The notes under the pieces are model-generated. The model had not been told where the DNA came from, did not search any database, and was given only the letters and a program-made list of their open reading frames with translations. The translations under genes and the position numbers were made by a program. This document shows positions 2,051 through 15,525 of a stretch of 15,525 bases of DNA, one piece after another. Numbering within the stretch: the first letter of the stretch is position 1; each line of letters begins with the position of its first letter. The stretch comes from a virus. The DNA lies in UHGV virus genome UHGV-0084806; one strand, written 5' to 3'.

Positions 2051-2113
2051 ATTCCAATTAACAATGAGAAACACATAGCCACCCCGTGGTATTGAAACCA
2101 TATAATGTTGGAT

Positions 2114-2143: not shown

Positions 2144-2149
2144 AACTAC

Positions 2150-2511
2150 ATCCCCGCGAGTGATTCAAAAAGGAGGGCCCAATTTTGTCCGAGTTTTTGT
2201 ATTCCCCCGCATGCCGCTGCGGAGCACTACATCTGAGTGTCTGACTAGGGGATAAAATTAGACTGGATAGTGAGAAGAAAGTGGCGTGCTAGGCTGTGCC
2301 GAGTGCTACCAGTACACCCTGGGGGTGTGCAGCTTTCGCCGAGACTGTAGTGGGTATCGGTTAATGCACGAAAAACCGAGAGGTCAGACAACCAATTTGC
2401 CGTAGGATTGTTTCCGGTGCGATACCGGTGTACTAACTGAAAGCAATGCGAAAAAGCATAAACTCGGTCCTTCAGTCGCCCTACACACTATTTACTAAGA
2501 AGGGCTAAAGC
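2150..2511 (+). other. ORF-free island; candidate structured non-coding RNA or long 5' leader of the downstream 118-aa ORF
   Basis: The six-frame track has no ORF of 60 aa or more on either strand across about 2083-2511. The island is visibly more GC-rich than the AT-rich ORFs on either side. Several short inverted repeats are visible, e.g. GGTATCG at 2354-2360 pairing with CGATACC at 2421-2427, ACACCC/GGGTGT at about 2314-2328, and CCGAG/CTCGG motifs. Confidence 0.3.
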
Positions 2512-2868
2512 ATGGATACAATTATCACATGGATGGGAGATCGTCTGTTGGGGTGGATAACAAACAAATCCGATCTGCGGCAGAGGGCAATCACTGGATT
2601 AACTCCTGCGATTTATTCAACAATTTTATATACTGAAAAATTAAAACGTGGTGAGCCTAATAACCCAAACGAAGAAGAAAAACTTTATAGGCTTTGGTAT
2701 GAAGCGTCTTCCCAAGTCGTAGACTTTGATCGAGAGCTGGCTAAAAGATGTTTAGATAAATCAGAATATTGGCTTCATTCTGAATTATATAGCCCTGAGA
2801 AAGTTGGAGAGCTAAACATTTCTTTGGTTGGTATGAAGGCAACGCTTGAAGGAATAAAGCACAATTAA
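2512..2868 (+). CDS. Hypothetical protein (orphan, 118 aa, AT-rich)
   Basis: ATG at 2512 preceded by AAGAAGGG (Shine-Dalgarno-like) 6-13 nt upstream. Coherent translation rich in charged residues. No recognisable domain. Confidence 0.55.
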   Translation: MDTIITWMGDRLLGWITNKSDLRQRAITGLTPAIYSTILYTEKLKRGEPNNPNEEEKLYRLWYEASSQVVDFDRELAKRCLDKSEYWLHSELYSPEKVGELNISLVGMKATLEGIKHN

Positions 2869-3055
2869 AACCTTTGATTTGCGATAATCAACTCGCCATA
2901 ATCATGTCATCGGAGCCTGAACAACTCCGGTGACTTCTGCGCTAAACGGGGACGTTTATGCGCACACACAATCCAAACTCTCTTCTCCCTCCACAGATGC
3001 AGAAATGCACCTGCGATATATTGTATCCAGCGTTTGACCTCTGCGGAGGTGAAGC

Positions 3056-3511
3056 GTGAATCTCCCACAAGATGGCATCAAATTACATCGCGGTAACTTC
3101 ACCGCTATCGGTCGGCAGATCCAGCCTTATCTGGAGGAGGGCAAATGCTTTCGCATGGTGCTTAAACCGTGGCGTGAGAAACGCAGTCTTTCCCAGAATG
3201 CACTCAGCCACATGTGGTACAGCGAAATCAGTGAATACCTCATCAGCAGGGGTAAAACGTTCGCTACTCCAGCTTGGGTAAAAGATGCTCTCAAACACAC
3301 ATATCTCGGTTATGAAACCAAAGACCTGGTTGATGTCGTAACCGGTGATATCACCACTATCCAGTCGTTACGCCATACCTCCGATCTTGATACCGGAGAG
3401 ATGTATGTCTTCCTGTGTAAGGTTGAAGCCTGGGCGGTGAATATTGGCTGCCACCTGACTATTCCGCAGAGCTGCGAGTTCCAGCTGCTCCGCGACAAGC
3501 AGGAGGCGTAA
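3056..3511 (+). CDS. ybcN: YbcN-like nin-region protein (DUF1367 family)
   Basis: 151-aa translation ([30 protein letters not shown]...) matches the DLP12 YbcN protein as I remember it. GTG start at 3056 with GGAGGTG Shine-Dalgarno. Stop overlaps the ninE start (TAATG). Confidence 0.8.
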
Positions 3512-3681
3512 TGGCTACACCGCTTATTCGTGTCATGAACGGACACATCTACAGAGTACCAGATCGTCGTAAGCGTAAACCGGAGCTGAAGCCTTCCGAA
3601 ATACCAACACTGCTCGGATATACCGCCAGCCTGGTTGATAAAAAATGGTTGCGACTGGCAGCAAGGAGGAATCATGGCTGA
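3511..3681 (+). CDS. ninE: NinE-like small protein (56 aa)
   Basis: Absent from the ORF track (below its size cutoff). Hand translation from ATG 3511 gives [56 protein letters not shown] with stop at 3679-3681. Sits between ybcN and ybcO as in DLP12/lambdoid nin regions and overlaps both neighbours. Confidence 0.7.
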   Translation: MATPLIRVMNGHIYRVPDRRKRKPELKPSEIPTLLGYTASLVDKKWLRLAARRNHG

Positions 3682-3964
3682 TTTGAGAAAAGCAGCGCGT
3701 AGTCGGGAATGCCAGGTAAGAATCCCTGGCGTATGTAATGGCAACCCTGAAACGTCTGTACTGGCACATATCCGGCTGACTGGATTGTGCGGCACCGGTA
3801 CCAAACCGCCAGACCTGATTGCCACCATTGCATGTTCTGCCTGCCACGACGAAATCGACCGCCGCACACATTTTGTCGATGCTGCATATGCAAAAGAATG
3901 CGCGCTGGAAGGTATGGCGAGAACACAGGTTATCTGGCTGAAAGAGGGGGTTATTAAGGCGTGA
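3674..3964 (+). CDS. ybcO: YbcO-like protein (DUF1364, putative nuclease, Cys-rich)
   Basis: The track ORF starts at 3635, but the likely start is ATG 3674 ([28 protein letters not shown]...), giving the 96-aa YbcO-like product. Cys-rich metal-binding pattern. Overlaps the rusA start. Confidence 0.8.
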
Positions 3965-4323
3965 ATACCTACAGCATCACATTACCCTGGCCTCCGAGCA
4001 ATAATCGCTATTACCGCCATAATCGCGGGCGCACGCACGTCAGCGCAGAGGGACAGGCATACCGCGATAACGTCGCCCGAATCATTAAAAACGCAATGCT
4101 GGATATCGGCCTGGCTATGCCTGTGAAAATCCGCATTGAGTGCCACATGCCGGATCGCCGTCGCCGTGACCTGGATAATCTGCAAAAAGCCGCTTTTGAC
4201 GCACTCACTAAAGCAGGTTTCTGGCTGGATGATGCTCAGGTCGTTGATTACCGCGTTGTGAAGATGCCTGTTACCAAAGGTGGGAGGCTGGAACTGACCA
4301 TCACCGAAATGGGGAATGAATGA
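3961..4323 (+). CDS. rusA: RusA Holliday junction resolvase
   Basis: 120-aa translation ([45 protein letters not shown]...) matches RusA as I remember it. GTG start overlapping the ybcO stop. Confidence 0.9.
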
Positions 4324-4460
4324 TGTTTGAGTTTTATATGGCAGAACGTCTTCGCCACCGCTGGGGGCGTCTGCGCTTATATCGTTTCCCCGGTTCTGTT
4401 TTGACCGATTACCGAATACTGAAGAATTACGCCAAAACCCTGACAGGAGCAGGAGTATGA
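4320..4460 (+). CDS. ylcG: YlcG-like small protein (46 aa)
   Basis: Absent from the ORF track. Hand translation from ATG 4320 (overlapping the rusA stop, ATGA) gives [46 protein letters not shown] with stop at 4458-4460. Position after rusA matches DLP12. Confidence 0.55.
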
Positions 4461-4545
4461 AGTCAGAGATAACAATCAACTAATACTGTTTCGTTGATTT
4501 TTGCTTGTAATTGGCGTTCTGGTCTGATTTTTGTGGAGTAAGTTG

Positions 4546-4929
4546 ATGCGTGATATTCAGATGGTTCTTGAGCGTTGGGGAGCGTGGGCGGCTAATAATC
4601 ATGAAGATGTGACCTGGTCGTCCATTGCCGCCGGTTTTAAGGGATTAATTACTTCAAAAGTAAAATCTCGCCCGCAATGTTGTGACGATGACGCGATGAT
4701 CATTTGCGGGTGCATGGCCCGTCTGAAAAAGAACAACAGCGATTTGCACGATTTATTAGTAGATTATTATGTAGTCGGTATGACATTCATGTCACTGGCA
4801 GGTAAGCATTGCTGCTCTGATGGTTATATCGGGAAAAGGTTACAGAAGGCTGAGGGCATAATTGAAGGGATGTTAATGGCATTAGATATCCGGTTAGAGA
4901 TGGATATCGTTGTTAATAACTCTAATTAA
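4546..4929 (+). CDS. quuD: Late-gene antiterminator Q (QuuD-like)
   Basis: The track ORF starts at TTG 4531; the likely start is ATG 4546 ([24 protein letters not shown]...), 127 aa. Cys-rich zinc-binding segment ([16 protein letters not shown]). Position between the nin genes and the porin/lysis genes is typical for Q. Confidence 0.8.
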
Positions 4930-4954
4930 TACGCCAATTATTTACTAAAAGTTA

Positions 4955-5125
4955 TTAAAAATGGGGCGTTGAAACGCCCCCAAAAATAAAGGGTAATATA
5001 TAACAGAAGGTTTGTATAGTTAGAAGCAAGGTTGTGCTTCTAAAGGAAGTGGCTTGAGGGAGCCACTTATATGTTGGGGAGGCAAAGCCTCCCACAACAT
5101 ATCTTTTAGTAATCAAATTAGAACT
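4955..5125 (-). ncRNA. Candidate IpeX-like sRNA / 3' end of the porin transcript, ending at an intrinsic terminator
   Basis: Immediately downstream of the porin stop (5118) on the minus strand there are three hairpins: GGGAGGC-AAA-GCCTCCC (5076-5093), AAGTGGCT...AGCCACTT (about 5048-5069), and GGGGCGTT-GA-AACGCCCC (4962-4979). The last is followed on the minus strand by ATTTTTAATAAC, a U-rich tail. From memory, the DLP12 sRNA IpeX lies at the 3' side of nmpC; exact limits are uncertain. Confidence 0.4.
4962..4979 (-). terminator. Intrinsic terminator hairpin (8-bp GC-rich stem, U-tract on minus strand)
   Basis: GGGGCGTT/AACGCCCC stem with a 2-nt loop; the U-rich run lies on the minus-strand side (reverse complement of 4950-4961). 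Oriented to terminate the porin/IpeX-like transcript. Confidence 0.5.
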
Positions 5126-6200
5126 GGTAAACCATACCTACAGCAACGATATCATCGGTAGCAACGCCAGATGCTTTCGTGAAATCGCTCTTATCAATCA
5201 GGTTGATTTTGTAGTCAACAAAAGTGGACATATTTTTGTTGAAGTAATAGGTTGCACCTACATCAACATATTCAACCAGGTCCTGATCACCCCAAACACC
5301 CAAGTCTTTTCCTTTAGAATGCAGGTAAGCAACGGATGGACGCAGGCCGAAGTCGAACTGATATTGTGCAACAGCTTCGAAGTTTTGTGCTTTGTTGGCA
5401 ATATGGTTATTACCAAAAACAGTCATGTTCTGGGTTTCAGAATAGGTGGTGGCCAGATAGATGTTGTTCGCATCATATTTCAGACCAGCTGCCCATACTT
5501 CAGCATTTTGACCAGAAGCATTCAGACCGTTGTTACCGTAGATAACCTGATTATTAGTGCGATCAGATTTAGCATAGGTTGCACCCACGCCGAATCCTTC
5601 ATACTCATAAGTAGTTGAGAAACCGAAACCATCGCCATTAGCTTCAGTTACTTCATTTCGGTCATTTTTGCCCTGATACTGAGCTGCAAAGTTCAGGCCA
5701 TCAACCAGACCAAAGAAGTCGTTGTTACGATAAGTTGCAACACCTGTGGTGCGACCAGTCATGAATACATCTGTTTGGGTCCAGGTATCGCCACCGAATT
5801 CTGGCAGAACGTCAGTCCACGCACCGATGTCGTATGCTACACCGTAGTTACGGCCGTAATCGATTGAGCCGTAGTCACCGAATTTCAGGCCTGCAAATGC
5901 AAGACGGGTTTTGTCTTTGGAGGAACCTTGAGATTCAGCGCGGTTGCCTTTGAATTCATATTCCCACTGACCGAAACCAGTCAGTTGATCGTTGATTTGG
6001 GTTTCACCTTTGAAGCCAAGACGGGCATAAGTAGTATCACCATCATCTGCATCATTAGAGGAGAAGTAGTGCTTAGCATTAACTTTCCCGTACAGATCCA
6101 GCTTGTTACTGTCTTTATTATAAATTTCAGCTGCCTGAGCAGACATCGCCATCAGTACTGATGCAGCTACAGCAGAAATTGCCACTGTTAATTTTTTCAT
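5118..6200 (-). CDS. nmpC: Outer membrane porin, OmpC/OmpF/NmpC family (prophage moron)
   Basis: 360-aa ORF with a signal peptide ([30 protein letters not shown]), the porin-family signature, and a C-terminal ...VGMVYQF ending in Phe, typical of beta-barrel proteins. Encoded antisense between Q and the lysis genes, as nmpC is in DLP12. Confidence 0.9.
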
Positions 6201-6788
6201 CGTGAGCCCTTTTTTTTGAACTATTATTAAAAAATGATGTCACTGCGCGATAAATATTCATCTAATCAATGTGATTATTTCAAGATGTAAGTTTTAGTTT
6301 CTCATTTAATTTGTGAAGTAGATCTCTATTTTTATCTGAACTTTTTCTATCGAAACCTATTTATGGCTCTTATTTGAACAAAAATAAACCTATTAGCTAA
6401 TTTATATTAATGGCTGTTATTTATGGGGGTTCTATAATTCGGCAGTTTAATTTAAATCAACTAAAAATAACGTCTGAAATTATTTATTGGTTATTTGTTG
6501 AGGTTTTCTTATGTATTTGTGGTGGAGTTTTGAACACTCGGTAGCATTCTCATAAATATCATTCAGTGGTTTACGTACGTAAAAAATTGGTTATGCTGTT
6601 AAGAGTGGTTACTTCGTCACACAGCTTAAACCCGCCGTCGAGCTGGTTTTTCCATTTTTTGAGTCTCGATATTAGCTGATAACTCAATACCTGAGTTATT
6701 CACTGACTCCGAGTCTGTTACGTTTCTGCTTTTTTGCGATACGTTGTATTCCCTCAATTTACACCCGCTTTGTCTGCGAGGTGGGGTT
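6201..6788. promoter_or_regulatory. AT-rich intergenic region: porin promoter (minus strand) and upstream region of the lysis cassette (plus strand)
   Basis: About 590 bp with no ORF, very AT-rich with many A/T tracts. Lies 5' of both the divergent porin gene and the holin gene. Confidence 0.35.
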
Positions 6789-7004
6789 ATGAAATCCATG
6801 GATAAGTTAACAACGGGTGTCGCCTATGGCACCTCAGCAGGTAGTGCCGGTTACTGGTTTTTACAGCTGCTCGATAAAGTCACGCCCTCACAGTGGGCAG
6901 CAATAGGTGTGCTGGGTAGCCTGGTATTTGGCCTGCTGACGTACCTGACAAACCTTTATTTCAAGATTAAAGAAGATAAGCGCAAGGCTGCGAGAGGTGA
7001 ATAA
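6789..7004 (+). CDS. essD: Holin, phage-21 S21-type (pinholin-like), dual-start motif
   Basis: The track ORF starts at 6744; the likely start is ATG 6789 ([26 protein letters not shown]...), with a second Met at codon 4, the classic holin/antiholin dual start. Two hydrophobic segments and a charged C-terminus ([13 protein letters not shown]). Stop overlaps the endolysin start (TAATG). Confidence 0.85.
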
Positions 7005-7501
7005 TGCCTCCATCATTACGAAAAGCCGTTGCTGCTGCTATTGGTGGCGGAGCAATTGCTATAGCATCAGTGTTAATCACTGGCCCAAGTGGTAACGATG
7101 GTCTGGAAGGTGTCAGCTACATACCATACAAAGATATTGTTGGTGTATGGACTGTATGTCACGGGCATACAGGAAAAGACATCATGCTCGGTAAAACGTA
7201 TACCAAAGCAGAATGCAAAGCCCTCCTGAATAAAGACCTTGCCACGGTCGCCAGACAAATTAACCCGTACATAAAAGTTGATATACCGGAAACAACGCGC
7301 GGCGCTCTTTACTTGTTCGTTTACAACGTGGGCGCTGGCAATTTCAGAACATCGACGCTTCTTCGCAAAATAAACCAGGGCGATATCAAAGGCGCATGTG
7401 ATCAGCTACGTCGCTGGACATATGCTGGCGGTAAGCAATGGAAAGGTCTCATGACTCGTCGTGAGATTGAGCGTGAAATCTGTTTGTGGGGTCAGCAATG
7501 A
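7004..7501 (+). CDS. rrrD: SAR endolysin (lysozyme, R21/RrrD-like) with N-terminal signal-arrest-release domain
   Basis: 165 aa. The N-terminus is Gly/Ala-rich and weakly hydrophobic ([20 protein letters not shown]), typical of a SAR domain; the rest resembles a T4-lysozyme-type muramidase. Stop overlaps the Rz start. Confidence 0.85.
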
Positions 7502-7959
7502 ACAGAGTAACCGCGATTATCTCCGCTCTGGTTATCTGCATCATCGTTTGCCTGTCATGGGCTGTTAATCATTACCGTGATAACGCCATTACCTACAAAG
7601 CCCAGCGCGACAAAAATGCCAGAGAACTGAAGCTGGCGAACGCGGCAATTACTGACATGCAGATGCGTCAGCGTGATGTTGCTGCGCTCGATGCAAAATA
7701 CACGAAGGAGTTAGCTGATGCGAAAGCTGAAAATGATGCTCTGCGTGATGATGTTGCCGCTGGTCGTCGTCGGTTGCACATCAAAGCAGTCTGTCAGTCA
7801 GTGCGTGAAGCCACCACCGCCTCCGGCGTGGATAATGCAGCCTCCCCCCGACTGGCAGACACCGCTGAACGGGATTATTTCACCCTCAGAGAGAGGCTGA
7901 TCACTATGCAAAAACAACTGGAAGGAACCCAGAAGTATATTAATGAGCAGTGCAGATAG
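7498..7959 (+). CDS. rzpD: Rz i-spanin
   Basis: Likely start ATG 7498 ([22 protein letters not shown]...): N-terminal transmembrane segment followed by a coiled-coil periplasmic domain. Follows the endolysin, as in lambda. Confidence 0.85.
7718..7900 (+). CDS. rzoD: Rz1 o-spanin (outer-membrane lipoprotein), embedded in the +1 frame of Rz
   Basis: 60-aa ORF wholly inside Rz. Lipobox LVVVGC followed by a proline-rich stretch ([15 protein letters not shown]), matching lambda Rz1 as I remember it. Confidence 0.8.
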
Positions 7960-7990
7960 AGCTGCCCATATCGATGGGCAACTCATGCAA

Positions 7991-8284
7991 TTATTGTGAG
8001 CAATACACACGCGCTTCCAGCGGAGTATAAATGCCTAAAGTAATAAAACCGAGAAATCCATTTACGAATGTTTGCTGGGTTTCTGTTTTAACAACATTTT
8101 CTGCGCCGCCACAAATTTTGGCTGCATCAACAGTTTTCTCCTGTCCAATTCCCGAAACGAAGAAGTGATGGGTGATGGTTTCCTTTGGTGTTACTGCTGT
8201 CGGTTTGTTTCCAACAGTAAACGTCTGTTGAGCACATCCTGTAATAAGCATTGCCAGAGCGGCAGAAAACAACATTTTTTTCAT
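7991..8284 (-). CDS. bor: Bor lipoprotein (serum-resistance lysogenic-conversion protein)
   Basis: The track ORF is 113 aa; the likely start is the internal Met giving a 97-aa product (MKKMLFSAALAMLITGCAQQTFTV...) with lipobox LITGC. Closely matches lambda Bor from memory. Confidence 0.85.
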   Translation of the reverse strand: MKKMLFSAALAMLITGCAQQTFTVGNKPTAVTPKETITHHFFVSGIGQEKTVDAAKICGGAENVVKTETQQTFVNGFLGFITLGIYTPLEARVYCSQ

Positions 8285-8646
8285 CTTATTATCCTGCATT
8301 GTTAAAAACGGCAGAATCCTATGTGACAACAATTAAACGATAGTTAAATGGATTGATGAAAATTAAAACTATATAGGTGTACGCTCAGACTATTGGAGGA
8401 AGTTGGGGACACTCAGAATCCTGTGGAATGAAATAAACCGGTCTATCCGTCTATTACCCTTTTAGCTGCGCTGTATCGTCGCCGTATTCCCGCATTAACC
8501 ATGACCGTAGCCCGACGGGGAATTCCTTCTGCGTGAGTGTGCGGGAATAATCAAAAACGATGCACACCGGGTTTTACTGTGCTGACAGACGCAGGGTTAC
8601 CCTCATAGTCGCTTTTCCGGTGCGATGGTGGAAGAAACCGGGATGT

Positions 8647-8841
8647 TCATCCATCATCACTTTGGATTGATGTATATGCTCTCTTTTCTGACGTTAGTCT
8701 CCGACGGCAGGCTTCAATGACCCAGGCTGAGAAATTCCCAGACCCTTTTTGCTCAAGAGCGATGTTAATTTGTTCAATCATTTGGTTAGGAAAGCGGATG
8801 TTGCGGGTTGTTGTTCTGCGGGTTCTGTTCTTCGTTGACAT
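8647..8841 (-). CDS. Small DUF3950/YlcI-like protein (64 aa)
   Basis: 64-aa ORF (MSTKNRTRRTTTRNIRFPNQMIEQINIALEQKGSGNFSAWVIEACRRRL...). The basic N-terminus and C-terminal region suggest a small DNA-binding protein. Position between bor and cos matches ylcI in DLP12 (from memory). Confidence 0.5.
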   Translation of the reverse strand: MSTKNRTRRTTTRNIRFPNQMIEQINIALEQKGSGNFSAWVIEACRRRLTSEKRAYTSIQSDDG

Positions 8842-8999
8842 GAGGTTGCCCCGTATTCAGTGTCGCTGATTTGTATTGTCTGAAGTTGTTTTTACGTTAA
8901 GTTGATGCAGATCAATTAATACGATACCTGCGTCATAATTGATTATTTGACGTGGTTTGATGGCGTAGATGCACGTTGTGACATGTAGATGATAATTAT

Positions 9000-9190
9000 T
9001 ATCATTTTTCGGGTCCTTTCCGGCGATCCGACAGGTTACGGGGCGGCGACCTCGCGGGTTTTCGCTATTTATGAAAATTTTCCGGTTTAAGGCGTTTCCG
9101 TTCTTCTTCGTCATAACTTAATGTTTTTATTTAAAATACCCTCTGAAAAGAAAGGAAGCGACAGGTGCTGAAAGCGAGCTTTTTGGCCTC
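9000..9190 (+). other. cos site (cosQ-cosN-cosB); the 12-nt cohesive end GGGCGGCGACCT is at 9041-9052
   Basis: The sequence ...CGACAGGTTACG|GGGCGGCGACCTCGCGGGTTTTCGCTATTTATGAAAATTTTCCGGTTTAAGGCG... matches the lambda right-end/left-end junction as I remember it, followed by the nu1 start. This is the expected internal position of cos in an integrated lambdoid prophage. Confidence 0.8.
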
Positions 9191-9229
9191 TGTCGTTTCC
9201 TTTCTCTGTTTTTGTCCGTGGAATGAACA

Positions 9230-9411
9230 ATGGAAGTCAACAAAAAGCAGCTGGCTGACATTTTCGGTGCGAGTATCCGTACCATTCAGAACTGGCAGGA
9301 ACAGGGAATGCCCGTTCTGCGAGGCGGTGGCAAGGGTAATGAGGTGCTTTATGACTCTGCCGCCGTCATAAAATGGTATGCCGAAAGGGATGCTGAAATT
9401 GAGAACGAAAA
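9230..9411 (+). pseudogene. nu1: Terminase small subunit nu1, N-terminal 60 codons only (truncated by an internal deletion)
   Basis: MEVNKKQLADIFGASIRTIQNWQEQGMPVLRGGGKGNEVLYDSAAVIKWYAERDAEIENE matches the lambda Nu1 N-terminus (the DNA-binding wHTH domain). After GAGAACGAAAA (9401-9411) the sequence switches to gene-C-derived DNA; the reading frame runs on out of frame to a stop at 9514. Confidence 0.8.
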
Positions 9412-9611
9412 CCCGCCAGATGTTTGCGCAGAAGGTGTCGGCATATACCGGCCTGTCCGTGCAGGCTGTGCTGGATACCGAGGCTGCAGTGTACAGCGGT
9501 CAGGAGGCCATTGATGCCGGACTGGCTGATGAACTTGTCAACAGCACCGATGCGATCACCGTCATGCGTGATGCACTGGATGCACGTAAATCCCGACTCT
9601 CAGGAGGGCGA
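9412..9611 (+). pseudogene. Remnant of the 3' end of head gene C (protease/scaffold fusion), lacking start and catalytic region
   Basis: In the nu3 frame, ...QMFAQKVSAYTGLSVQAVLDTEAAVYSGQEAIDAGLADELVNSTDAITVMRDALDARKSRLSGGR matches the C-terminal part of lambda gpC just upstream of the nested nu3 start. No upstream C sequence is present. Confidence 0.7.
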
Positions 9612-10007
9612 ATGACCAAAGAGACTCAATCAACAACTGTTTCAGCCACTGCTTCGCAGGCTGACGTTACTGACGTGGTGCCAGCGACGGAGGGCGAAAA
9701 CGCCAGCGCGGCGCAGCCGGACGTGAACGCGCAGATCACCGCAGCGGTTGCGGCAGAAAACAGCCGCATTATGGGGATCCTCAACTGTGAGGAGGCTCAC
9801 GGACGCGAAGAACAGGCCCGCGTGCTGGCAGAAACTCCAGGTATGACCGTGGAAACGGCCCGCCGCATTCTGGCCGCAGCACCACAGAGTGCACAGGCGC
9901 GCAGTGACACTGCGCTGGATCGTCTGATGCAGGGTGCACCGGCACCGCTGGCTGCAGGTAACCCGGCATCTGATGCCGTTAACGATTTGCTGAACACACC
10001 AGTGTAA
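9612..10007 (+). CDS. nu3: Nu3 capsid scaffolding protein
   Basis: ATG 9612 preceded by GGAGGG. The 131-aa product (MTKETQSTTVSATASQADVTDVVPATEGENASAAQPDVNAQI...NDLLNTPV) matches lambda Nu3 from memory. Confidence 0.8.
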   Translation: MTKETQSTTVSATASQADVTDVVPATEGENASAAQPDVNAQITAAVAAENSRIMGILNCEEAHGREEQARVLAETPGMTVETARRILAAAPQSAQARSDTALDRLMQGAPAPLAAGNPASDAVNDLLNTPV

Positions 10008-10016
10008 GGGATGTTT

Positions 10017-10349
10017 ATGACGAGCAAAGAAACCTTTACCCATTACCAGCCGCTGGGCAACAGTGACCCGGCTCATACCGCAACCGCGCCCGGCGGATTG
10101 AGTGCGAAAGCGCCTGCAATGACCCCGCTGATGCTGGACACCTCCACCCGTAAGCTGGTTGCGTGGGATGGCACCACCGACGGTGCTGCTGTTGGCATTC
10201 TTGCGGTTGCTGCTGACCAGACCAGCACCACGCTGACGTTCTACAAGTCCGGCACGTTCCGTTATGAGGATGTGCTCTGGCCGGAGGCTGCCAGCGACGA
10301 GACGAAAAAACGGACCGCGTTTGCCGGAACGGCAATCAGCATCGTTTAA
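10017..10349 (+). CDS. D: Head decoration protein D
   Basis: Start at ATG 10017 ([41 protein letters not shown]...), 110 aa, near-identical to lambda gpD from memory. The track start at 10011 adds two codons. Confidence 0.9.
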
Positions 10350-10370
10350 CCTTACCCTTCATCACTAAAG

Positions 10371-10391
10371 GCCGCCTGTGCGGCTTTTTTT
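10371..10391 (+). other. Stem-loop with U-tract in the D-E intergenic region (terminator-like or mRNA-stabilising hairpin)
   Basis: GCCGC-CTGT-GCGGC followed by TTTTTTT, with flanking AAAG/CTTT extending the stem. Lies inside the late operon between D and E. Confidence 0.4.
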
Positions 10392-10404
10392 ACGGGATTT
10401 TTTT

Positions 10405-11430
10405 ATGTCGATGTACACAACCGCCCAGCTGCTGGCGGCAAATGAGCAGAAATTTAAGTTTGATCCGCTGTTTCTGCGTCTCTTTTTCCGTGAGAGCTAT
10501 CCCTTCACCACGGAGAAAGTCTATCTCTCACAAATTCCGGGACTGGTAAACATGGCGCTGTACGTTTCGCCGATTGTTTCCGGTGAGGTTATCCGTTCCC
10601 GTGGCGGATCCACCTCTGAATTTACGCCGGGATATGTCAAGCCGAAGCATGAGGTGAATCCGCAGATGACCCTGCGTCGCCTGCCGGATGAAGATCCGCA
10701 GAATCTGGCGGACCCGGCTTACCGCCGCCGTCGCATCATCATGCAGAACATGCGTGACGAAGAGCTGGCCATTGCCCAGGTCGAAGAGATGCAGGCAGTT
10801 TCTGCCGTGCTTAAGGGCAAATACACCATGACCGGTGAAGCCTTCGATCCGGTTGAGGTGGATATGGGCCGCAGTGCGGCGAATAACATCACGCAGTCCG
10901 GCGGCACGGAGTGGAGCAAGCGTGACAAGTCCACGTATGACCCGACCGACGATATCGAAGCCTACGCGCTGAACGCCAGCGGTGTGGTGAATATCATCGT
11001 GTTTGATCCGAAAGGCTGGGCGCTGTTCCGTTCCTTCAAGGCCGTCAAGGAGAAGCTGGATACCCGTCGCGGCTCTAATTCCGAGCTGGAGACAGCGGTG
11101 AAAGACCTGGGCGAAGCGGTGTCCTACAAGGGGATGTATGGCGATATGGCGATCGTCGTGTATTCCGGACAGTATGTGGAAAACGACGTCAAAAAGAACT
11201 TCCTGCCGGACAACACGATGGTGCTGGGGAACACTCAGGCACGCGGTCTGCGCACCTATGGCTGCATTCAGGATGCGGACGCACAGCGCGAAGGCATTAA
11301 CGCCTCTGCCCGCTACCCGAAAAACTGGGTGACCACTGGCGATCCGGCGCGTGAGTTCACCATGATTCAGTCAGCACCGCTGATGCTGCTGGCTGACCCT
11401 GATGCGTTCGTGTCCGTACAACTGGCGTAA
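10405..11430 (+). CDS. E: Major capsid protein E
   Basis: Start at ATG 10405 (MSMYTTAQLLAANEQKFKFDPLFLRLFFRESYPFTTEKVYL...), 341 aa, near-identical to lambda gpE from memory. Confidence 0.95.
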   Translation: MSMYTTAQLLAANEQKFKFDPLFLRLFFRESYPFTTEKVYLSQIPGLVNMALYVSPIVSGEVIRSRGGSTSEFTPGYVKPKHEVNPQMTLRRLPDEDPQNLADPAYRRRRIIMQNMRDEELAIAQVEEMQAVSAVLKGKYTMTGEAFDPVEVDMGRSAANNITQSGGTEWSKRDKSTYDPTDDIEAYALNASGVVNIIVFDPKGWALFRSFKAVKEKLDTRRGSNSELETAVKDLGEAVSYKGMYGDMAIVVYSGQYVENDVKKNFLPDNTMVLGNTQARGLRTYGCIQDADAQREGINASARYPKNWVTTGDPAREFTMIQSAPLMLLADPDAFVSVQLA

Positions 11431-11434
11431 TCGT

Positions 11435-11448
11435 GGCCCTTCGGGGCC
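11435..11448 (+). other. Stem-loop with UUCG-type tetraloop in the E-FI intergenic region
   Basis: GGCCC-TTCG-GGGCC followed by a T-rich run (ATTTTCTCTCTG), immediately after the E stop. Confidence 0.4.
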
Positions 11449-11471
11449 ATTTTCTCTCTGTGGATGAGTCC

Positions 11472-11870
11472 ATGACGAAAGATGAACTGATTGCCCGTCT
11501 CCGCTCGTTGGGTGAGCAACTGAACCGTGATGTCAGCCTGACGGGGACGAAAGAAGAACTGGCGCTCCGTGTGGCAGAGCTGGAAGAAGAGCTTGATGAC
11601 ACGGATGACACTGCCGGTCAGGACACCCCTCTCAGCCCGGAAAATGTGCTGACCGGGCATGAAAATGAGGCTGTATCAGCGCAGCCGGATACCATGATTC
11701 AGGATGCGGCTGATCTGGTCACCGTTGTGGCACTGGTGACGCTGCATACTGATGCACTTCACGCCACGCGGGATGAACCTGTGGCATTTGTGATGCAGGG
11801 AACGGCGTTCCGTGTCTCTGCCGGTGTGGCAGCTGAAATGACAGAACGTGGCCTGGCCAGAATGCAATAA
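11472..11870 (+). CDS. FI: DNA packaging protein FI
   Basis: Start at ATG 11472 (MTKDELIARLRSLGEQLNRDVSLTGTKEELALRVAELEEELDD...), 132 aa, matches lambda gpFI from memory. The track ORF starts at an upstream GTG (11433). Confidence 0.85.
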   Translation: MTKDELIARLRSLGEQLNRDVSLTGTKEELALRVAELEEELDDTDDTAGQDTPLSPENVLTGHENEAVSAQPDTMIQDAADLVTVVALVTLHTDALHATRDEPVAFVMQGTAFRVSAGVAAEMTERGLARMQ

Positions 11871-11881
11871 CGGGAGGCGCT

Positions 11882-12235
11882 GTGGCTGATTTCGATAACC
11901 TGTTCGATGCTGCCATTGCCCGCGCCGATGAAACGATACGCGGGTACATGGGAACATCAGCCACCATGACATCCGGTGAGCAGTCCGGTGCGGTGATACG
12001 TGGTGTTTTTGATGACCCTGAAAATATCAGCTATGCCGGACAGGGCGTGCGCGTTGAAGGCTCCAGCCCGTCCCTGTTTGTCCGGACTGATGATGTGCGG
12101 CAGCTGCGGCGTGGAGACACGCTGACCATCGGTGAGGAAAACTTCTGGGTAGATCGGGTTACGCCGGATGATGGCGGAAGCTGTCATCTCTGGCTTGGGC
12201 GGGGGGTACCGCCTGCCGTTAACCGTCGCCGCTGA
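11882..12235 (+). CDS. FII: Head-tail connector protein FII
   Basis: 117 aa (MADFDNLFDAAIARADETIRGYMGTSATMTSGEQSGAVIRGVFDDPENISYAGQGV...), matches lambda gpFII from memory. Confidence 0.9.
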   Translation: MADFDNLFDAAIARADETIRGYMGTSATMTSGEQSGAVIRGVFDDPENISYAGQGVRVEGSSPSLFVRTDDVRQLRRGDTLTIGEENFWVDRVTPDDGGSCHLWLGRGVPPAVNRRR

Positions 12236-12246
12236 AAGGGGGATGT

Positions 12247-12825
12247 ATGGCCATAAAAGGTCTTGAGCAGGCCGTTGAAAACCTCAGCCGTATCAGCAAA
12301 ACGGCGGTGCCTGGTGCCGCCGCAATGGCCATTAACCGCGTTGCTTCATCCGCGATATCGCAGTCGGCGTCACAGGTTGCCCGTGAGACAAAGGTACGCC
12401 GGAAACTGGTAAAGGAAAGGGCCAGGCTGAAAAGGGCCACGGTCAAAAATCCGCAGGCCAGAATCAGGGTTAACCGGGGGGATTTGCCCGTAATCAAGCT
12501 GGGTAACGCGCGGATTGTCCTGTCCCGACGCAGGCGTCGTAAAAAGGGGCAGCGTTCAGCCCTGAAAGGTGGCGGCAGCGTGCTTGTGGTGGGAAACCGT
12601 CGTATTCCCGGCGCGTTTATTCAGCAACTGAAAAATGGCCGGTGGCATGTCATGCAGCGTGTGGCCGGGAAAAACCGTTACCCCATTGATGTGGTGAAAA
12701 TCCCGATGGCGGTGCCGCTTACCACGGCGTTTAAACAGAATATTGAACGGATACGGCGTGAACGTCTTCCGAAAGAGCTGGGCTATGCGCTGCAGCATCA
12801 ACTGAGAATGGTAATAAAGCGATGA
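12247..12825 (+). CDS. Z: Tail completion protein Z
   Basis: 192 aa (MAIKGLEQAVENLSRISKTAVPGAAAMAINRVASSAISQSASQVARETK...), matches lambda gpZ. Stop overlaps the U start (ATGA). Confidence 0.9.
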   Translation: MAIKGLEQAVENLSRISKTAVPGAAAMAINRVASSAISQSASQVARETKVRRKLVKERARLKRATVKNPQARIRVNRGDLPVIKLGNARIVLSRRRRRKKGQRSALKGGGSVLVVGNRRIPGAFIQQLKNGRWHVMQRVAGKNRYPIDVVKIPMAVPLTTAFKQNIERIRRERLPKELGYALQHQLRMVIKR

Positions 12826-13217
12826 AACATACTGAACTCCGTGCAGCCGTACTGGATGCACTGGAGAAGCATGACACCGGGGCGACGCTTTTTGATGGTC
12901 GCCCCGCTGTTTTTGATGAGGCGGATTTTCCGGCAATTGCCGTTTATCTCATCGGCGCTGAATACACGGGCGAAGAGCTGGACAGTGATACCTGGCAGGC
13001 GGAGCTGCATATTGAAGTTTTCCTGCCTGCTCAGGTGCCGGATTCAGAGCTGGATTCGTGGATGGAGTCCCGGATTTATCCGGTGATGAGCGATATCCCG
13101 GCACTGTCAGATTTGATCACCAGTATGGTGGCCAGTGGCTATGACTACCGGCGCGACGATGATGCGGGCCTGTGGAGTTCAGCCGATCTGACTTATGTCA
13201 TTACCTATGAAATGTGA
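12822..13217 (+). CDS. U: Tail terminator protein U
   Basis: 131 aa ([54 protein letters not shown]...), matches lambda gpU. Confidence 0.9.
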
Positions 13218-13224
13218 GGACGAT

Positions 13225-13965
13225 ATGCCTGTACCAAATCCAGTAATGCCGGTGAAAGGGGCCGGGACCACACTGTGGGTTTATAAGGGGAGCGGTGACC
13301 CTTATGCGAACCCGCTTTCAGACGTTGACTGGTCGCGTCTGGCAAAAGTTAAAGACCTGACGCCCGGCGAACTGACCGCTGAGTCCTATGACGACAGCTA
13401 TCTCGATGATGAAGATGCAGACTGGACTGCGACCGGGCAGGGGCAGAAATCTGCCGGAGATACCAGCTTCACGCTGGCTTGGATGCCCGGAGAGCAGGGG
13501 CAGCAGGCGCTGCTGGCGTGGTTTAATGAAGGTGATACCCGTGCCTATAAAATCCGCTTCCCGAACGGCACGGTCGATGTGTTCCGCGGCTGGGTCAGCA
13601 GTATCGGTAAGGCGGTGACGGCGAAGGAAGTGATCACCCGCACGGTGAAAGTCACCAACGTGGGACGCCCGTCGATGGCAGAAGATCGCAGCACGGTAAC
13701 AGCGGCAACCGGCATGACCGTGACGCCTGCCAGCACTTCGGTGGTGAAAGGGCGGAGCATCACGCTGACCGTGGCATTCCAGCCGGAAGGCGCAACCGAC
13801 AAGAGCTTCCGTGCGGTGTCTTCGGATAAAACAAAAGCCACCGTGTCGGTCAGTGGTATGACCATCACCGTGAACGGCGTTGCTGCAGGCAAGGTCAACA
13901 TTCCGGTTGTATCTGGTAATGGTGAGTTTGCTGCGGTTGCAGAAATCACCGTCACCGCCAGTTAA
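13225..13965 (+). CDS. V: Major tail tube protein V (with C-terminal Ig-like domain)
   Basis: Start at ATG 13225 with GAGGA Shine-Dalgarno ([45 protein letters not shown]...), 246 aa, matches lambda gpV. The track ORF starts upstream at 13195, inside U. Confidence 0.9.
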
Positions 13966-13980
13966 TCCGGAGAGTCAGCG

Positions 13981-14403
13981 ATGTTCCTGAAAACAGAATC
14001 ATTTGAACATAACGGTGTGACCGTCACGCTTTCTGAACTGTCAGCCCTGCAGCGTATTGAGCATCTCGCCCTGATGAAACGGCAGGCAGAACAGGCGGAG
14101 TCAGACAGCAACCGGAAGTTTACTGTGGAAGACGCCATCAGAACCGGCGCGTTTCTGGTGGCGATGTCCCTGTGGCATAACCATCCGCAGAAGACGCAGA
14201 TGCCGTCCATGAATGAAGCCGTTAAACAGATTGAGCAGGAAGTGCTTACCACCTGGCCCACAGAGGCAATTTCTCATGCTGAAAACGTGGTGTACCGGCT
14301 GTCCGGTATGTCTGAGTTTGTGGTGAATGATGCTCCTGAACAGGCAGAGGACGCCGGGCCTGCAGAGCCTGTTTCTGCGGGAAAGTGTTCGACGGTGAGC
14401 TGA
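13981..14403 (+). CDS. G: Tail assembly chaperone G
   Basis: 140 aa (MFLKTESFEHNGVTVTLSELSALQRIEHLALMKRQAEQAESDSNRKFTVEDAIRTGAF...), matches lambda gpG. Confidence 0.9.
   Translation: MFLKTESFEHNGVTVTLSELSALQRIEHLALMKRQAEQAESDSNRKFTVEDAIRTGAFLVAMSLWHNHPQKTQMPSMNEAVKQIEQEVLTTWPTEAISHAENVVYRLSGMSEFVVNDAPEQAEDAGPAEPVSAGKCSTVS
14379..14385 (+). other. Programmed -1 ribosomal frameshift slippery heptamer G_GGA_AAG (G to G-T fusion)
   Basis: GGGAAAG at 14379-14385 lies in the G frame as G.GGA.AAG, 6 codons before the G stop. The T frame (ORF 14385-14819) is the -1 frame relative to G. Same arrangement as the lambda G/GT frameshift. Confidence 0.75.
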
Positions 14404-14819
14404 GTTTTGCCCTGAAACTGGCGCGTGAGATGGGGCGACCCGACTGGCGCGCCATGCTTGCCGGGATGTCATCCACGGAGTATGCCGACTGGCACCGCTT
14501 TTACAGTACCCATTATTTTCATGATGTTCTGCTGGATATGCACTTTTCCGGGCTGACGTACACCGTGCTCAGCCTGTTTTTCAGCGATCCGGATATGCAT
14601 CCGCTGGATTTCAGTCTGCTGAACCGGCGCGAGGCTGACGAAGAGCCTGAAGATGATGTGCTGATGCAGAAAGCGGCAGGGCTTGCCGGAGGTGTCCGCT
14701 TTGGCCCGGACGGGAATGAAGTTATCCCTACTTCCCCGGATGTGGCGGACATGACGGAGGATGACGTAATGCTGATGACAGTATCAGAAGGGATCGCAGG
14801 AGGAGTCCGGTATGGCTGA
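14385..14819 (+). CDS. T: Tail assembly protein T (made as a G-T fusion by -1 frameshifting; not independently initiated)
   Basis: -1 frame relative to G. Translation (...LSFALKLAREMGRPDWRAMLAGMSSTEYADWHRFYSTHYFHDVLLDMHFSGL...) matches lambda gpT. No independent start is expected; the fusion would span 13981-14819. Confidence 0.8.
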   Translation: MFDGELSFALKLAREMGRPDWRAMLAGMSSTEYADWHRFYSTHYFHDVLLDMHFSGLTYTVLSLFFSDPDMHPLDFSLLNRREADEEPEDDVLMQKAAGLAGGVRFGPDGNEVIPTSPDVADMTEDDVMLMTVSEGIAGGVRYG

Positions 14820-15525
14820 ACCGGTAGGCGATCTGGTCGTTGATTTAAGTCTGGATGCGGCCAGATTTGACGAGCAGATGGCCAGAGTCAGGCGTCATTT
14901 TTCCGGTACGGAAAGTGATGCGAAAAAAACAGCGGCAGTCGTTGAACAGTCGCTGAGCCGACAGGCACTGGCTGCACAGAAAGCGGGGATTTCCGTCGGG
15001 CAGTATAAAGCCGCCATGCGTATGCTGCCTGCGCAGTTCACTGACGTGGCCACGCAGCTTGCAGGCGGGCAAAGTCCGTGGCTGATCCTGCTGCAACAGG
15101 GTGGTCAGGTTAAGGACTCCTTCGGCGGGATGATCCCCATGTTCAGGGGGCTTGCCGGTGCGATCACCCTGCCGATGGTCGGGGTCACCTCGCTGGCGGT
15201 GGCGACAGGTGCGCTGGTGTACGCCTGGTACCAGGGAGATTCCACGCTTTCAGCGTTTAATAAAACCCTGGTTCTTTCCGGTAATCAGTCCGGACTGACT
15301 GCCGATCGTATGCTGACTCTCTCAAGAGCCGGGCAGGCAGCAGGGCTGACGTTTAACCAGGCGAGAGAGTCACTGGCAGCCCTGGTGAATGCCGGTGTGC
15401 GTGGTGGTGAACAGTTTGATGCCATCAACCAGAGTGTCGCGCGTTTTGCGTCTGCATCCGGTGTGGAGGTGGATAAAGTCGCTGAAGCCTTCGGGAAGCT
15501 GACCACTGACCCGACGTCGGGACTG
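14812..15525 (+). CDS. H: Tail tape measure protein H, N-terminal 238 codons (runs off the end of the window)
   Basis: ATG 14812 preceded by GGAGGAG; overlaps the T stop. Hand translation (MAEPVGDLVVDLSLDAARFDEQMARVRRHFSGTESDAKKTAAVVEQSLSRQALAAQKAGISVGQYKAAMRMLPAQFTDVATQLAGG...) matches the lambda gpH N-terminus from memory. Not in the ORF track because there is no stop within the window. Confidence 0.85.
   Translation, partial: MAEPVGDLVVDLSLDAARFDEQMARVRRHFSGTESDAKKTAAVVEQSLSRQALAAQKAGISVGQYKAAMRMLPAQFTDVATQLAGGQSPWLILLQQGGQVKDSFGGMIPMFRGLAGAITLPMVGVTSLAVATGALVYAWYQGDSTLSAFNKTLVLSGNQSGLTADRMLTLSRAGQAAGLTFNQARESLAALVNAGVRGGEQFDAINQSVARFASASGVEVDKVAEAFGKLTTDPTSGL

What the first reader, a model, noticed from the sequence alone, without database searches (positions are those of the whole stretch)
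9000..10007. Intact cos beside a deletion fusing nu1 codon 60 to the 3' end of gene C: terminase, portal and protease are lost
The sequence matches the lambda cos junction and the first 60 codons of nu1. At 9411/9412 it jumps to the C-terminal end of gene C, so the rest of nu1 and genes A, W, B and most of C are missing. In lambda that interval is about 4.7 kb (from memory). The prophage therefore cannot package DNA or mature capsids, yet nu3, D, E, FI, FII and the tail genes remain intact. The surviving cos means that a co-resident lambdoid helper could in principle package this element, like a cosmid. The Nu1 fragment keeps its DNA-binding domain but not its terminase-interacting region, so it might bind cosB and interfere with a superinfecting phage's terminase.
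Basis: partly seen in the sequence, partly recalled or inferred. Interest (0 to 1): 0.6.

Follow-up and report, generated by a model that had tools for sequence, protein, structure and literature searches.

The report
Packaging-gene deletion in a lambda-like prophage
A lambda-like prophage of gut E. coli has lost 4.8 kb carrying its DNA-packaging, portal and capsid-protease genes through a clean deletion beside a near-normal cos site; this is real, but it is an ordinary step in prophage decay.

Summary
Window 9041-9411 equals lambda 1-372 (cos plus nu1 codons 1-60). Window 9410-15525 equals lambda 5140-11255. The join has 2 bp of microhomology (AA), and 4,769 bp are missing: the rest of nu1, A, W, B and C codons 1-241. 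Seven independent metagenome assemblies carry the same junction, so it is not an assembly artefact. None of 5,426 complete E. coli genomes has it, although 533 carry the intact counterpart.

Two corrections apply. The join is out of frame, so Nu1 residues 1-60 gain a 34-residue nonsense tail. It also lies inside nu3, which loses its start codon and first three codons, so nu3 is not intact.

cosQ, cosN, R3, I1 and R1 are identical to lambda. R2 has one substitution, which three complete genomes with intact terminase genes also carry.

At least six other independent nu1/A-to-C deletions exist in complete E. coli genomes, so this is routine prophage decay.

The cosmid-like and Nu1-decoy ideas are untested. 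The first needs excision and replication. The second faces weak binding by the isolated domain.

The window is a metagenome contig, and its linkage to the intact tail genes beyond about 12.4 kb is doubtful.

The parts
8630..9040 (+). Right end of the lambda-like genome (equivalent to lambda 48092-48502), including ylcI (8647-8841, minus strand) and cosQ
   Evidence: 96.1% identical to the lambda right end; alignment
9011..9017 (+). cosQ (GGGTCCT, equivalent to lambda 48473-48479)
   Evidence: Identical to lambda in the alignments. The cosQ coordinates come from my own knowledge. Its role in termination is stated in PMC9026076.
9039..9054 (+). cosN: the 12-nt cohesive-end sequence GGGCGGCGACCT (9041-9052) plus 2 flanking bp on each side
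   Evidence: Identical to lambda, to phages PhiR11_1 and Turner, and to the KK05-19 prophage
9090..9205 (+). cosB: R3 (9090-9105), the IHF site I1, R2 (9148-9163, inverted; one A-to-G substitution at 9158, lambda 118) and R1 (9190-9205)
   Evidence: R3, I1 and R1 are identical to lambda. The 1-nt deletion relative to lambda between R2 and R1 is shared by the viable phages PhiR11_1 and Turner. The R2 variant is shared by three complete genomes with intact terminase genes.
9230..9409 (+). nu1 codons 1-60: the winged-helix DNA-binding domain of the small terminase subunit
   Evidence: 100% identical to lambda Nu1 1-60. Matches PDB 1J9I, 7LW0 and 6HN7_B and Pfam Phage_Nu1 at profile positions 1-61 of 164.
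9410..9411 (+). Deletion junction: 2-nt microhomology AA shared by nu1 (lambda 371-372) and C (lambda 5140-5141)
   Evidence: The exact 36-nt junction string is present in L004 to L010.
9230..9514 (+). Out-of-frame fusion ORF: Nu1 residues 1-60 plus 34 nonsense residues (94 aa)
   Evidence: The exact protein occurs only in metagenome and Logan assemblies.
9412..10007 (+). 3' remnant of C (codons 242-439), which equals nu3 codons 4-201. The native nu3 ATG and upstream region are deleted. The nearest in-frame ATGs are at 9378, 9390 and 9420, and none has a well-placed Shine-Dalgarno sequence.
   Evidence: Only the last 58 of 154 Pfam S49 profile positions remain. The Shine-Dalgarno assessment is by direct reading of the sequence.
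10017..12235 (+). D, E, FI and FII, all full length. This is part of the 6273-12334 core that is 100% identical in contig L005.
12247..15525 (+). Z, U, V, G, T and the 5' part of H, full length in this contig. Their physical linkage to the junction is uncertain.
   Evidence: One search shows full lengths. Searches show a haplotype switch somewhere in 12209-12467, that the other contigs continue into a Z'-'L fusion at 12334, and that the V allele is unique to this contig.

Best explanation
This is a recent, spontaneous deletion in a lambda-like prophage of the family that occupies the DLP12 locus of E. coli. The deletion is 4,769 bp and was formed by illegitimate recombination at 2 bp of microhomology. 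It joins nu1 codon 60 or 61 to C codon 241 or 242, out of frame. It removes the TerL-binding part of Nu1, the large terminase subunit A, W, the portal B, the protease domain of C, and the start of the scaffold gene nu3. The element can therefore neither cut or package DNA nor build a portal-containing prohead by itself. It is a defective prophage on its way to becoming a remnant. cos, nu1' and the downstream genes survive because the deletion did not reach them and too little time has passed for them to decay. Nothing suggests they survive because they do something new. What is shown: the breakpoints, the gene content, the recurrence of the junction in independent samples, and further decay in sister copies. 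What is inferred: loss of function, recency and the absence of selection.
For: An intact counterpart is present in 533 complete E. coli genomes, for example KK05-19 and E7476, which carry nohD-A-W-portal-S49 between the same flanks. Both arms are essentially identical to intact prophages. Window 1-9411 differs from E7476 at 2 positions. Window 9410-12466 differs from WP5-S17-ESBL-11 at none. The deletion is therefore very young. The same junction occurs in seven assemblies. In L005, L006 and L009 the element has decayed further, with a second deletion fusing Z codon about 30 to L and with the Q-to-nmpC region lost. At least six other independent deletions run from nu1 or A into C in complete E. 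coli genomes. Their lambda coordinates are 1856|5140, 280|5256, 299|4882, 955|5267, 2178|5284 and 697|4878. The few variants of the 94-aa ORF carry amino-acid changes: K48R, A67T and E24K. E24 is a DNA-contacting residue. That gives no sign of purifying selection.
Against: None of 5,426 complete genomes carries this junction, yet it recurs in several gut metagenomes. It therefore marks a lineage that persists. Persistence is compatible with neutrality but does not prove it. The C-side endpoint (lambda 5140) is identical to that of an independent A-C deletion found in 10 genomes. That hints at a hot spot, or at selection on what is kept.
Confidence: 0.85

Rival explanations
1. The junction belongs to a much more degraded remnant, the L005 type. 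That remnant runs emrE-ybcL-ybcM | essD-rrrD-rzpD-bor-cos-nu1'-'C-D-E-FI-FII-Z'-'L-K-I. On this view the 15.5-kb window is a metagenome chimera that stitched the shared 6273-12334 core to flanks from other lambdoid prophages in the sample. The intact Q region and the tail genes Z to H would then not belong to the same element.
For: The window is a metaSPAdes-style contig from ENA ERZ772898. L005 is 100% identical to the window over 6273-12334 and diverges on both sides. L005, L006 and L009 continue from 12334 into L, and L007 stops exactly at 12334, which is a graph branch. L005's L-K-I region is 99.96% identical to the WP5 prophage. The window is WP5-identical only up to 12466 and then changes haplotype. 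The switch interval 12209-12467 contains the L005 junction. The window's V protein allele is found in no other contig of a collection of 153 billion gene positions. Beyond 13.6 kb the window tiles only in short pieces on the panel of relatives.
Against: The left arm 1-9411 is a natural contiguous haplotype, differing at 2 positions from the E7476 prophage. The window stays WP5-identical for 132 nt past the L005 junction, as expected if it were the undeleted precursor. The stretch 12209-12466 is conserved in all lambdoids examined, so the switch point is poorly resolved. The reference panel for the tiling was small. The look-up lists the identical contig for 2 samples.
Confidence: 0.4
2. The element is a helper-dependent mobile element. 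Its retained cos lets the terminase and proheads of a co-resident or superinfecting lambda-like phage package it, as with a cosmid or a complemented defective prophage.
For: cosQ, cosN, R3, I1 and R1 are identical to lambda. Plasmids that carry a cloned lambda cos are transferred by induced lambda or phi80 lysogens (PMC6739421). Defective lambdoid prophages of O157 Sakai are induced, packaged and sometimes transferred through interactions between prophages (PMC2669165). Relatives such as E7476 carry repressor and replication genes upstream. 4,170 of 5,426 E. coli genomes hold at least one lambda-like nu1/C region, so potential helpers are common.
Against: Lambda packaging ends only at a second, downstream cos (PMC9026076). 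A single chromosomal cos is therefore not enough: the element must excise and replicate, and the genes for that lie outside the window. The L005-type copies have fliE directly upstream of emrE and no replication or integrase genes in view. R2 carries a substitution at a position equivalent to a TerS-contacted base of R3. No isolated phage among the top matches has it. There is no evidence that cos is retained by selection.
Confidence: 0.1
3. The 94-aa Nu1' protein acts as an anti-phage decoy. It would either occupy cosB or form dead-end heterodimers with the small terminase subunit of an incoming lambda-like phage. In effect this resembles Rpp of cos-type PICIs.
For: Residues 1-60 are identical to lambda Nu1. 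They include the recognition helix 17-24, the wing 31-39 and all listed DBD dimer-interface residues: I11, F12, G13, S43, A44, I47 and A51. The oligomerisation and TerL-binding regions are absent. Rpp shows that a wHTH protein pairing with the TerS DBD can block lambda packaging (PMC6739421).
Against: Lambda TerS shows low-affinity, non-specific DNA binding in vitro, and the DBD homodimer is predicted to be weak, about 3e-5 M (PMC6739421). The fragment lacks the extra contacts that make Rpp win. Helix alpha-3 (residues 43-65) is cut at residue 60 and followed by N-P-P and a nonsense tail. The tail is modelled as low-confidence or disordered, although the single-sequence model is poor overall (pLDDT 50). 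The gene lies in the late operon, which is presumably silent in a repressed prophage (inference). Variants include E24K in a DNA-contacting residue. The ORF is a by-product of a frameshifting deletion.
Confidence: 0.04
4. The junction is an assembly or sequencing artefact.
For: The window is a short-read metagenome contig. The junction was found neither in complete genomes nor in GTDB representative genomes.
Against: Seven contigs from different samples and assemblers (SPAdes, MEGAHIT k119 and k127, JGI, Logan) carry the identical junction. A 2-nt overlap cannot create a de Bruijn mis-join.
Confidence: 0.01

Closest known systems
Cryptic lambdoid prophages of E. coli K-12 (DLP12, Qin) with cos and a nu1 homologue (nohD/nohA)
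   Same: The gene neighbourhood is the same as DLP12: ybcK, ybcN, ninE, ybcO, rusA, quuD, the nmpC-type porin, essD, rrrD, rzpD, bor/iss, ylcI, cos and nohD. It is a defective prophage that keeps cos and the start of the late operon.
   Different: From my own knowledge, K-12 DLP12 keeps a full-length nohD and has lost everything from A to the tail fibres. Here nu1 is cut at codon 60, and the head genes D to FII (and, in this contig, the tail genes) are still present. The breakpoint pair 372|5140 was not found in any of 5,426 complete genomes.
Other nu1/A-to-C deletions in E. coli lambdoid remnants (HL15-type Qin remnant, UR21/11-869, EC130, VE-V10-F, S1-CAM-01-C, BS74R-D)
   Same: The same block (terminase, W, portal, protease) is removed by short-microhomology deletions. 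The HL15 type has the identical C-side endpoint, lambda 5140.
   Different: The left endpoints differ (lambda 1856, 280, 299, 955, 2178, 697). In BS74R-D the fusion is in frame (452 aa). These are independent events. For example, HL15's C remnant differs from the window by about 4 SNPs in 298 bp (98.7%), whereas the intact WP5 C gene is identical to the window over its retained C remnant.
Defective prophage pool of E. coli O157 Sakai (Asadulghani et al. 2009, PMC2669165)
   Same: These are lambdoid prophages with lesions in morphogenetic genes that may still be mobilised with help from co-resident prophages.
   Different: Mobilisation was shown experimentally there. Nothing comparable is known for this element, and its excision and replication genes are not in view.
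cos-type phage-inducible chromosomal islands (EcCICFT073) and their Rpp protein (PMC6739421, PMC9026076)
   Same: They also have a cos site packaged by the terminase of a lambda-like helper, and a small wHTH protein that pairs with the TerS DBD.
   Different: PICIs have their own cosB, integrase, replication module and Rpp, and they lack capsid and tail genes. This element has phage cosB, capsid genes and no Rpp. Nu1' is a truncated TerS, not an Rpp homologue.
Cosmids and cos plasmids
   Same: They carry cosQ-cosN-cosB plus the 5' end of nu1 without terminase genes.
   Different: A cosmid replicates autonomously and is packaged from concatemers that hold two cos sites. This cos is a single chromosomal copy inside a prophage of natural sequence. 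The late-gene arm from C onwards is 96.8% identical to lambda, and the cos-nu1' stretch is 99.5% identical. The flanks are natural E. coli prophage haplotypes, so it is not a laboratory construct.

Membership tests
Lambda-like (Lambdavirus-type) prophage of the DLP12-locus family | Collinear late region (lysis genes, cos, nu1 ... head and tail genes) with high nucleotide identity to lambda | tested here: met
   Searches give 96 to 99.5% identity to lambda on both sides of the junction. One search finds all retained proteins at full length and 90 to 99% identical.
Lambda-like (Lambdavirus-type) prophage of the DLP12-locus family | DLP12-type early and accessory genes (ybcK, ybcN, ninE, ybcO, rusA, quuD, nmpC-type porin, essD, rrrD, rzpD, bor/iss, ylcI) | tested here: met
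   Pfam content of the contig. RefSeq annotation of the near-identical prophages in KK05-19 and E7476.
Complete, self-sufficient lambda-type prophage | Genes for both terminase subunits, the portal and the prohead protease | tested here: not met
   There are no tblastn hits for A, W or B. Nu1 is present only for residues 1-60 and C only for residues 242-439.
Functional lambda cos site | cosQ, cosN and the cosB subsites R3-I1-R2-R1 in lambda order and spacing | tested here: met
   All subsites are present. R2 has one substitution (window 9158). The 1-nt R2-R1 spacing difference from lambda is shared by the viable phages PhiR11_1 and Turner.
Functional lambda cos site | Cleavage and packaging by lambda-specificity terminase | not testable with these tools
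   This needs an in vivo or in vitro packaging assay. The R2 variant is seen only in prophages (E7476, PEC1011, TW14425), not in the closest isolated phages.
cos-type PICI (phage satellite) | No capsid or tail genes, its own integrase, regulator and replication module, and an Rpp-type redirecting protein with a non-phage cosB | tested here: not met
   The contig encodes D, E, FI, FII and tail proteins, carries phage-type cosB and has no Rpp-like gene.
Rpp-like TerS-hijacking protein | A wHTH DBD that mimics the TerS DBD plus a C-terminal dimerisation domain that stabilises the heterocomplex | tested here: not met
   Nu1' is the TerS DBD itself. What follows it is a 34-aa out-of-frame tail with no family match and a low-confidence model.
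Small terminase DNA-binding domain (Nu1 N-terminal wHTH) | Recognition helix 17-24, wing 31-39 and dimer-interface residues in alpha-1 and alpha-3 | tested here: met
   60 of 60 residues are identical to lambda. The feature positions are from PMC9026076 and PMC6739421. Folding of the truncated, tailed protein was not established.

The most novel reading that the evidence does not exclude
The nu1'-cos module is kept because it is useful. The 94-aa Nu1 DNA-binding fragment would poison or mislead the small terminase of incoming lambda-specificity phages, giving a TerS-derived, Rpp-like defence. The adjacent cos would let the remnant hitch-hike in helper capsids. Recurrent deletions ending at the same C position (lambda 5140) would then reflect selection or a hot spot that repeatedly creates such modules.
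Probability: 0.04. Interest if true: 0.55.

Novelty: new member of a known kind. Interest (0 to 1): 0.15.

Why it matters
As it stands the finding matters little. It documents one more way in which a lambda-like prophage is disabled, by loss of the terminase, portal and protease block. It also gives a precise, very young breakpoint pair that marks a gut E. coli lineage not represented among complete genomes.

It is mildly useful in three ways. It illustrates that deletions from nu1 or A into C recur in E. coli prophage remnants. It shows two independent events sharing one endpoint. And it is a warning that short-read metagenome contigs through lambdoid prophages can be patchworks.

It would matter more only if the retained cos or the Nu1 fragment were shown to act on other phages.

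Tried and rejected
1. Assembly artefact at the junction. Rejected: the junction is identical in seven assemblies.
2. Laboratory construct or cosmid. Rejected: the sequence is a natural haplotype, identical to the prophages of E7476 and WP5-S17-ESBL-11 on either side, and the breakpoints show no obvious link to restriction sites.
3. A host other than E. coli. I considered Shigella because no complete E. coli genome has the junction. The fli genes on L005 are 100% identical to several complete E. coli genomes, so the host is E. coli in the broad sense. Shigella could not be excluded with these collections.
4. Exact-pattern scans of the GTDB representatives and of the JGI metagenome collection found nothing. 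The second scan also missed the JGI contig L005, so it is not exhaustive.
6. The single-sequence AlphaFold model of the 94-aa ORF was poor (pLDDT 50). I used it only for the order of secondary-structure elements.
7. The promoter and terminator scan of 8200-10100 gave nothing above chance.
8. A hairpin upstream of the shared C endpoint is modest (z = -1.9) and does not explain a hot spot.
9. Derivation of the window junction from the HL15-type junction by a second deletion. I considered this and rejected it, because the window's C remnant is identical to an intact WP5 C gene and differs from HL15's.
10. Tiling the window on a panel of relatives to detect assembly chimerism was inconclusive, because the panel was small.
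Full report
**What the window is.** The window is an entire metagenome contig, ENA ERZ772898 NODE_1423_length_15525. Its gene content is that of a lambda-like prophage of the kind found at the DLP12 locus of E. coli. In order it carries ybcK recombinase, ybcN, ninE, ybcO, rusA, ylcG, quuD, an nmpC/ompC-type porin, essD, rrrD, rzpD, bor/iss and ylcI. Then come cos, a truncated nu1, the 3' end of C, and D, E, FI, FII, Z, U, V, G, T and the start of H. 533 of 5,426 complete E. coli genomes hold a place covering at least 80% of the window. In the best of these the same flanks enclose about 4.77 kb more, annotated nohD, terminase large subunit, head-tail joining protein, portal and S49 peptidase.

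**The observation.** blastn against lambda J02459 gives window 9041-9411 = lambda 1-372 (99.5%) and window 9410-15525 = lambda 5140-11255 (96.8%). Window 8630-9040 matches the lambda right end. The two matches overlap by 2 nt (AA). The alignments with lambda and with the intact KK05-19 prophage show no inserted bases. The missing stretch is lambda 373-5141, 4,769 bp. tblastn with the lambda proteins finds Nu1 1-61, C 242-439 and full-length D to G. It finds nothing for A, W or B in the window or in the sister contigs L005 and L006.

**Corrections to the description.** 4,769 is not a multiple of 3, so no Nu1-C fusion protein is made. The nu1 frame runs on for 34 nonsense codons to a stop at 9512-9514, giving a 94-aa product. 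The junction also lies inside nu3. Lambda nu3 starts at 5132 within C, and the retained sequence starts at 5140-5142. The nu3 ATG, its first three codons and everything upstream are gone. An open frame of 209 codons (9378-10007) starts in the +1 frame of nu1. The in-frame ATGs at 9378, 9390 and 9420 have no well-placed Shine-Dalgarno sequence (read directly). Production of scaffold protein is therefore doubtful. Only the last 58 of 154 positions of the S49 peptidase profile remain.

**cos.** cosQ (9011-9017), cosN (9039-9054), R3 (9090-9105), the I1 region and R1 (9190-9205) are identical to lambda. There are two differences from lambda in cosB. The first is a 1-nt deletion between R2 and R1. 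The isolated phages PhiR11_1 and Turner and the intact KK05-19 prophage share it, so it is a harmless polymorphism. The second is A-to-G at window 9158 (lambda 118) in R2, at the position equivalent to R3 bp 55. That position lies within the stretch of R3 that contacts TerS (PMC9026076). This variant is not specific to the deletion lineage. Window 5000-9411 is 100.0% identical in three complete genomes that have intact nohD-A-W-portal-C (E7476, PEC1011, TW14425). According to Murialdo and Feiss, R3 is the critical element. A transition in a conserved base pair is most severe in R3, less so in R2 or R1, and phage N15, which has only R3, shares lambda's packaging specificity. So 'intact cos' is a fair description at the sequence level, but function is untested.

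**Is the junction real, and how common is it?** The exact 209-aa ORF, whose first 11 codons come from nu1 out of frame, was found on six more contigs. They come from JGI, ENA and Logan samples built with different assemblers. All six contain the 36-nt junction string. L006 and L009 begin exactly 55 nt before the junction, as expected for a k=55 graph break at a repeat boundary. A variant of the 94-aa ORF is on five further Logan contigs. The junction is absent from all 5,426 complete E. coli genomes. 4,170 of them match the flanking pieces, but none matches contiguously. It is also absent from the GTDB representative genomes. A scan of the JGI metagenome collection found nothing either, but it also missed L005, so it is not exhaustive. 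The fusion proteins are absent from NCBI protein sets. That is expected, because annotation pipelines would call them pseudogenes (my inference). The fli genes on L005 are 100% identical to complete E. coli genomes, so the host is E. coli.

**Age and origin.** Window 1-9411 differs from the E7476 prophage at 2 positions, leaving aside an ISCro1 insertion in E7476. Window 9410-12466 differs from the prophage of WP5-S17-ESBL-11 at none. Both of those prophages have the full nu1-to-C block. Each side of the junction is thus indistinguishable from an intact prophage. The deletion is therefore very recent. Its parent was a mosaic of these two haplotypes, or the event joined two prophages.

**Context: routine decay.** Complete genomes contain at least six other, independent deletions running from nu1 or A into C. 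In lambda coordinates they are:
- 1856|5140 in the HL15-type Qin remnant, found in 10 genomes
- 280|5256 in UR21/11-869
- 299|4882 in EC130
- 955|5267 in VE-V10-F
- 710|1875 plus 2178|5284 in S1-CAM-01-C
- 697|4878 in BS74R-D, in frame

Each has 2 to 11 nt of overlap. The sister contigs L005, L006 and L009 carry the same nu1-C junction plus a second deletion that fuses Z codon about 30 to L. L005 has also lost the Q-to-porin region. This is the stepwise erosion expected of a defective prophage. From my own knowledge, Bobay et al. 2014 (PNAS) describe this pattern in general. That paper is not in the searchable library.

**A caveat on the contig.** L005 is 100% identical to the window from 6273 to 12334 and unrelated or diverged outside that core. 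To the right, L005's L-K-I region is 99.96% WP5-like, whereas the window leaves the WP5 haplotype at 12467. Typical haplotypes are uninformative between 12209 and 12466. The window's haplotype switch therefore falls in a 260-nt interval that contains the L005 junction at 12334. L007 ends exactly there. The window's V protein allele occurs in no other contig of the large gene-position index, while its Z and U alleles are common. These facts fit a graph mis-join at the Z branch point. They also fit a natural recombinant. I put about 40% on the window being chimeric beyond the shared core. If it is, 'tail genes intact' and the presence of Q and the porin do not apply to the element that carries the junction.

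**The functional ideas: helper packaging.** Helper packaging has precedent. cos plasmids are transferred by induced lambda and phi80 lysogens (PMC6739421). Defective lambdoid prophages of O157 Sakai are packaged and sometimes transferred (PMC2669165). But lambda packaging terminates only at a second downstream cos (PMC9026076). The element would therefore have to excise and replicate, and those genes are outside the window. They are not seen on the 17.2 kb of L005 that was fetched.

**The functional ideas: Nu1 decoy.** Nu1 1-60 is identical to lambda. It contains the recognition helix, the wing and all listed DBD dimer-interface residues. However, lambda TerS binds DNA weakly and non-specifically in vitro, and the DBD homodimer is predicted to be weak. 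Helix alpha-3 is truncated and followed by Asn-Pro-Pro and a nonsense tail. Variants include E24K at a DNA-contacting residue. The ORF sits in the late operon. Both ideas remain possible but unsupported.

**Verdict.** The feature is a new instance of a well-known kind, a deletion-inactivated lambdoid prophage, and its interest is low.

Noticed in passing
window 9410-9411; L014 (E. coli HL15, NZ_CP079770.1) 2508-2509: An independent deletion in a Qin-type remnant joins terminase A (lambda 1856) to C at exactly the same C-side position (lambda 5140, AA microhomology) as the window's nu1-C deletion. It is present in 10 of 5,426 complete genomes. Two other events end at lambda 4878 and 4882. This may be a deletion hot spot near the nu3 start, or it may be coincidence, because my search favoured endpoints near 5140.
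   Followed up: partly
L005 12870-13646 (the same in L006 and L009); corresponds to window 12334: Sister contigs carry a second deletion that fuses Z codon about 30 to the minor tail gene L, giving a 258-aa ORF. It removes U, V, G, T, H and M. This junction too is absent from complete E. coli genomes.
   Followed up: partly
window 12209-12467 and 13225-13965: The window changes haplotype within 12209-12467. It is identical to WP5-S17-ESBL-11 before that interval and not after it. Its V protein allele is found on no other contig of the 153-billion-gene index. This may be metagenome assembly chimerism.
   Followed up: partly
L005 3934-4914: In L005 the flagellar gene fliE lies 334 bp from the DLP12 gene emrE, followed by ybcL and ybcM. 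No complete E. coli genome has this adjacency. It is either a chromosomal rearrangement in this lineage or another chimeric contig.
   Followed up: partly
L006 8074-10004 (minus strand): Downstream of the degraded remnant lies a gene pair: an AAA_15/SMC_N-type ATPase (395 aa) and a protein with a faint HNH hit (248 aa). The arrangement recalls Septu-type defence systems. This flank has no contiguous match in complete E. coli genomes.
   Followed up: no
window about 4504-4511 (between ylcG and quuD); L013 8859-11474: The otherwise near-identical prophage of E. coli E7476 has an ISCro1 (IS66-family) insertion at this point, which the window lacks.
   Followed up: no
window 5118-6200 (minus strand) and 7991-8284 (minus strand): The prophage carries an intact nmpC/ompC-type porin gene between Q and the lysis genes, and a bor/iss serum-survival lipoprotein gene. 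Both are typical lysogenic-conversion cargo of this prophage family.
   Followed up: no
L019 (E. coli BS74R-D, NZ_CP063332.1) 1581-2939: An in-frame nu1-C fusion (lambda 697|4878) is annotated there as a 452-aa 'terminase small subunit'. Its position at 4878 suggests a nearly full-length Nu1 joined to about two thirds of the C protease-scaffold protein.
   Followed up: no
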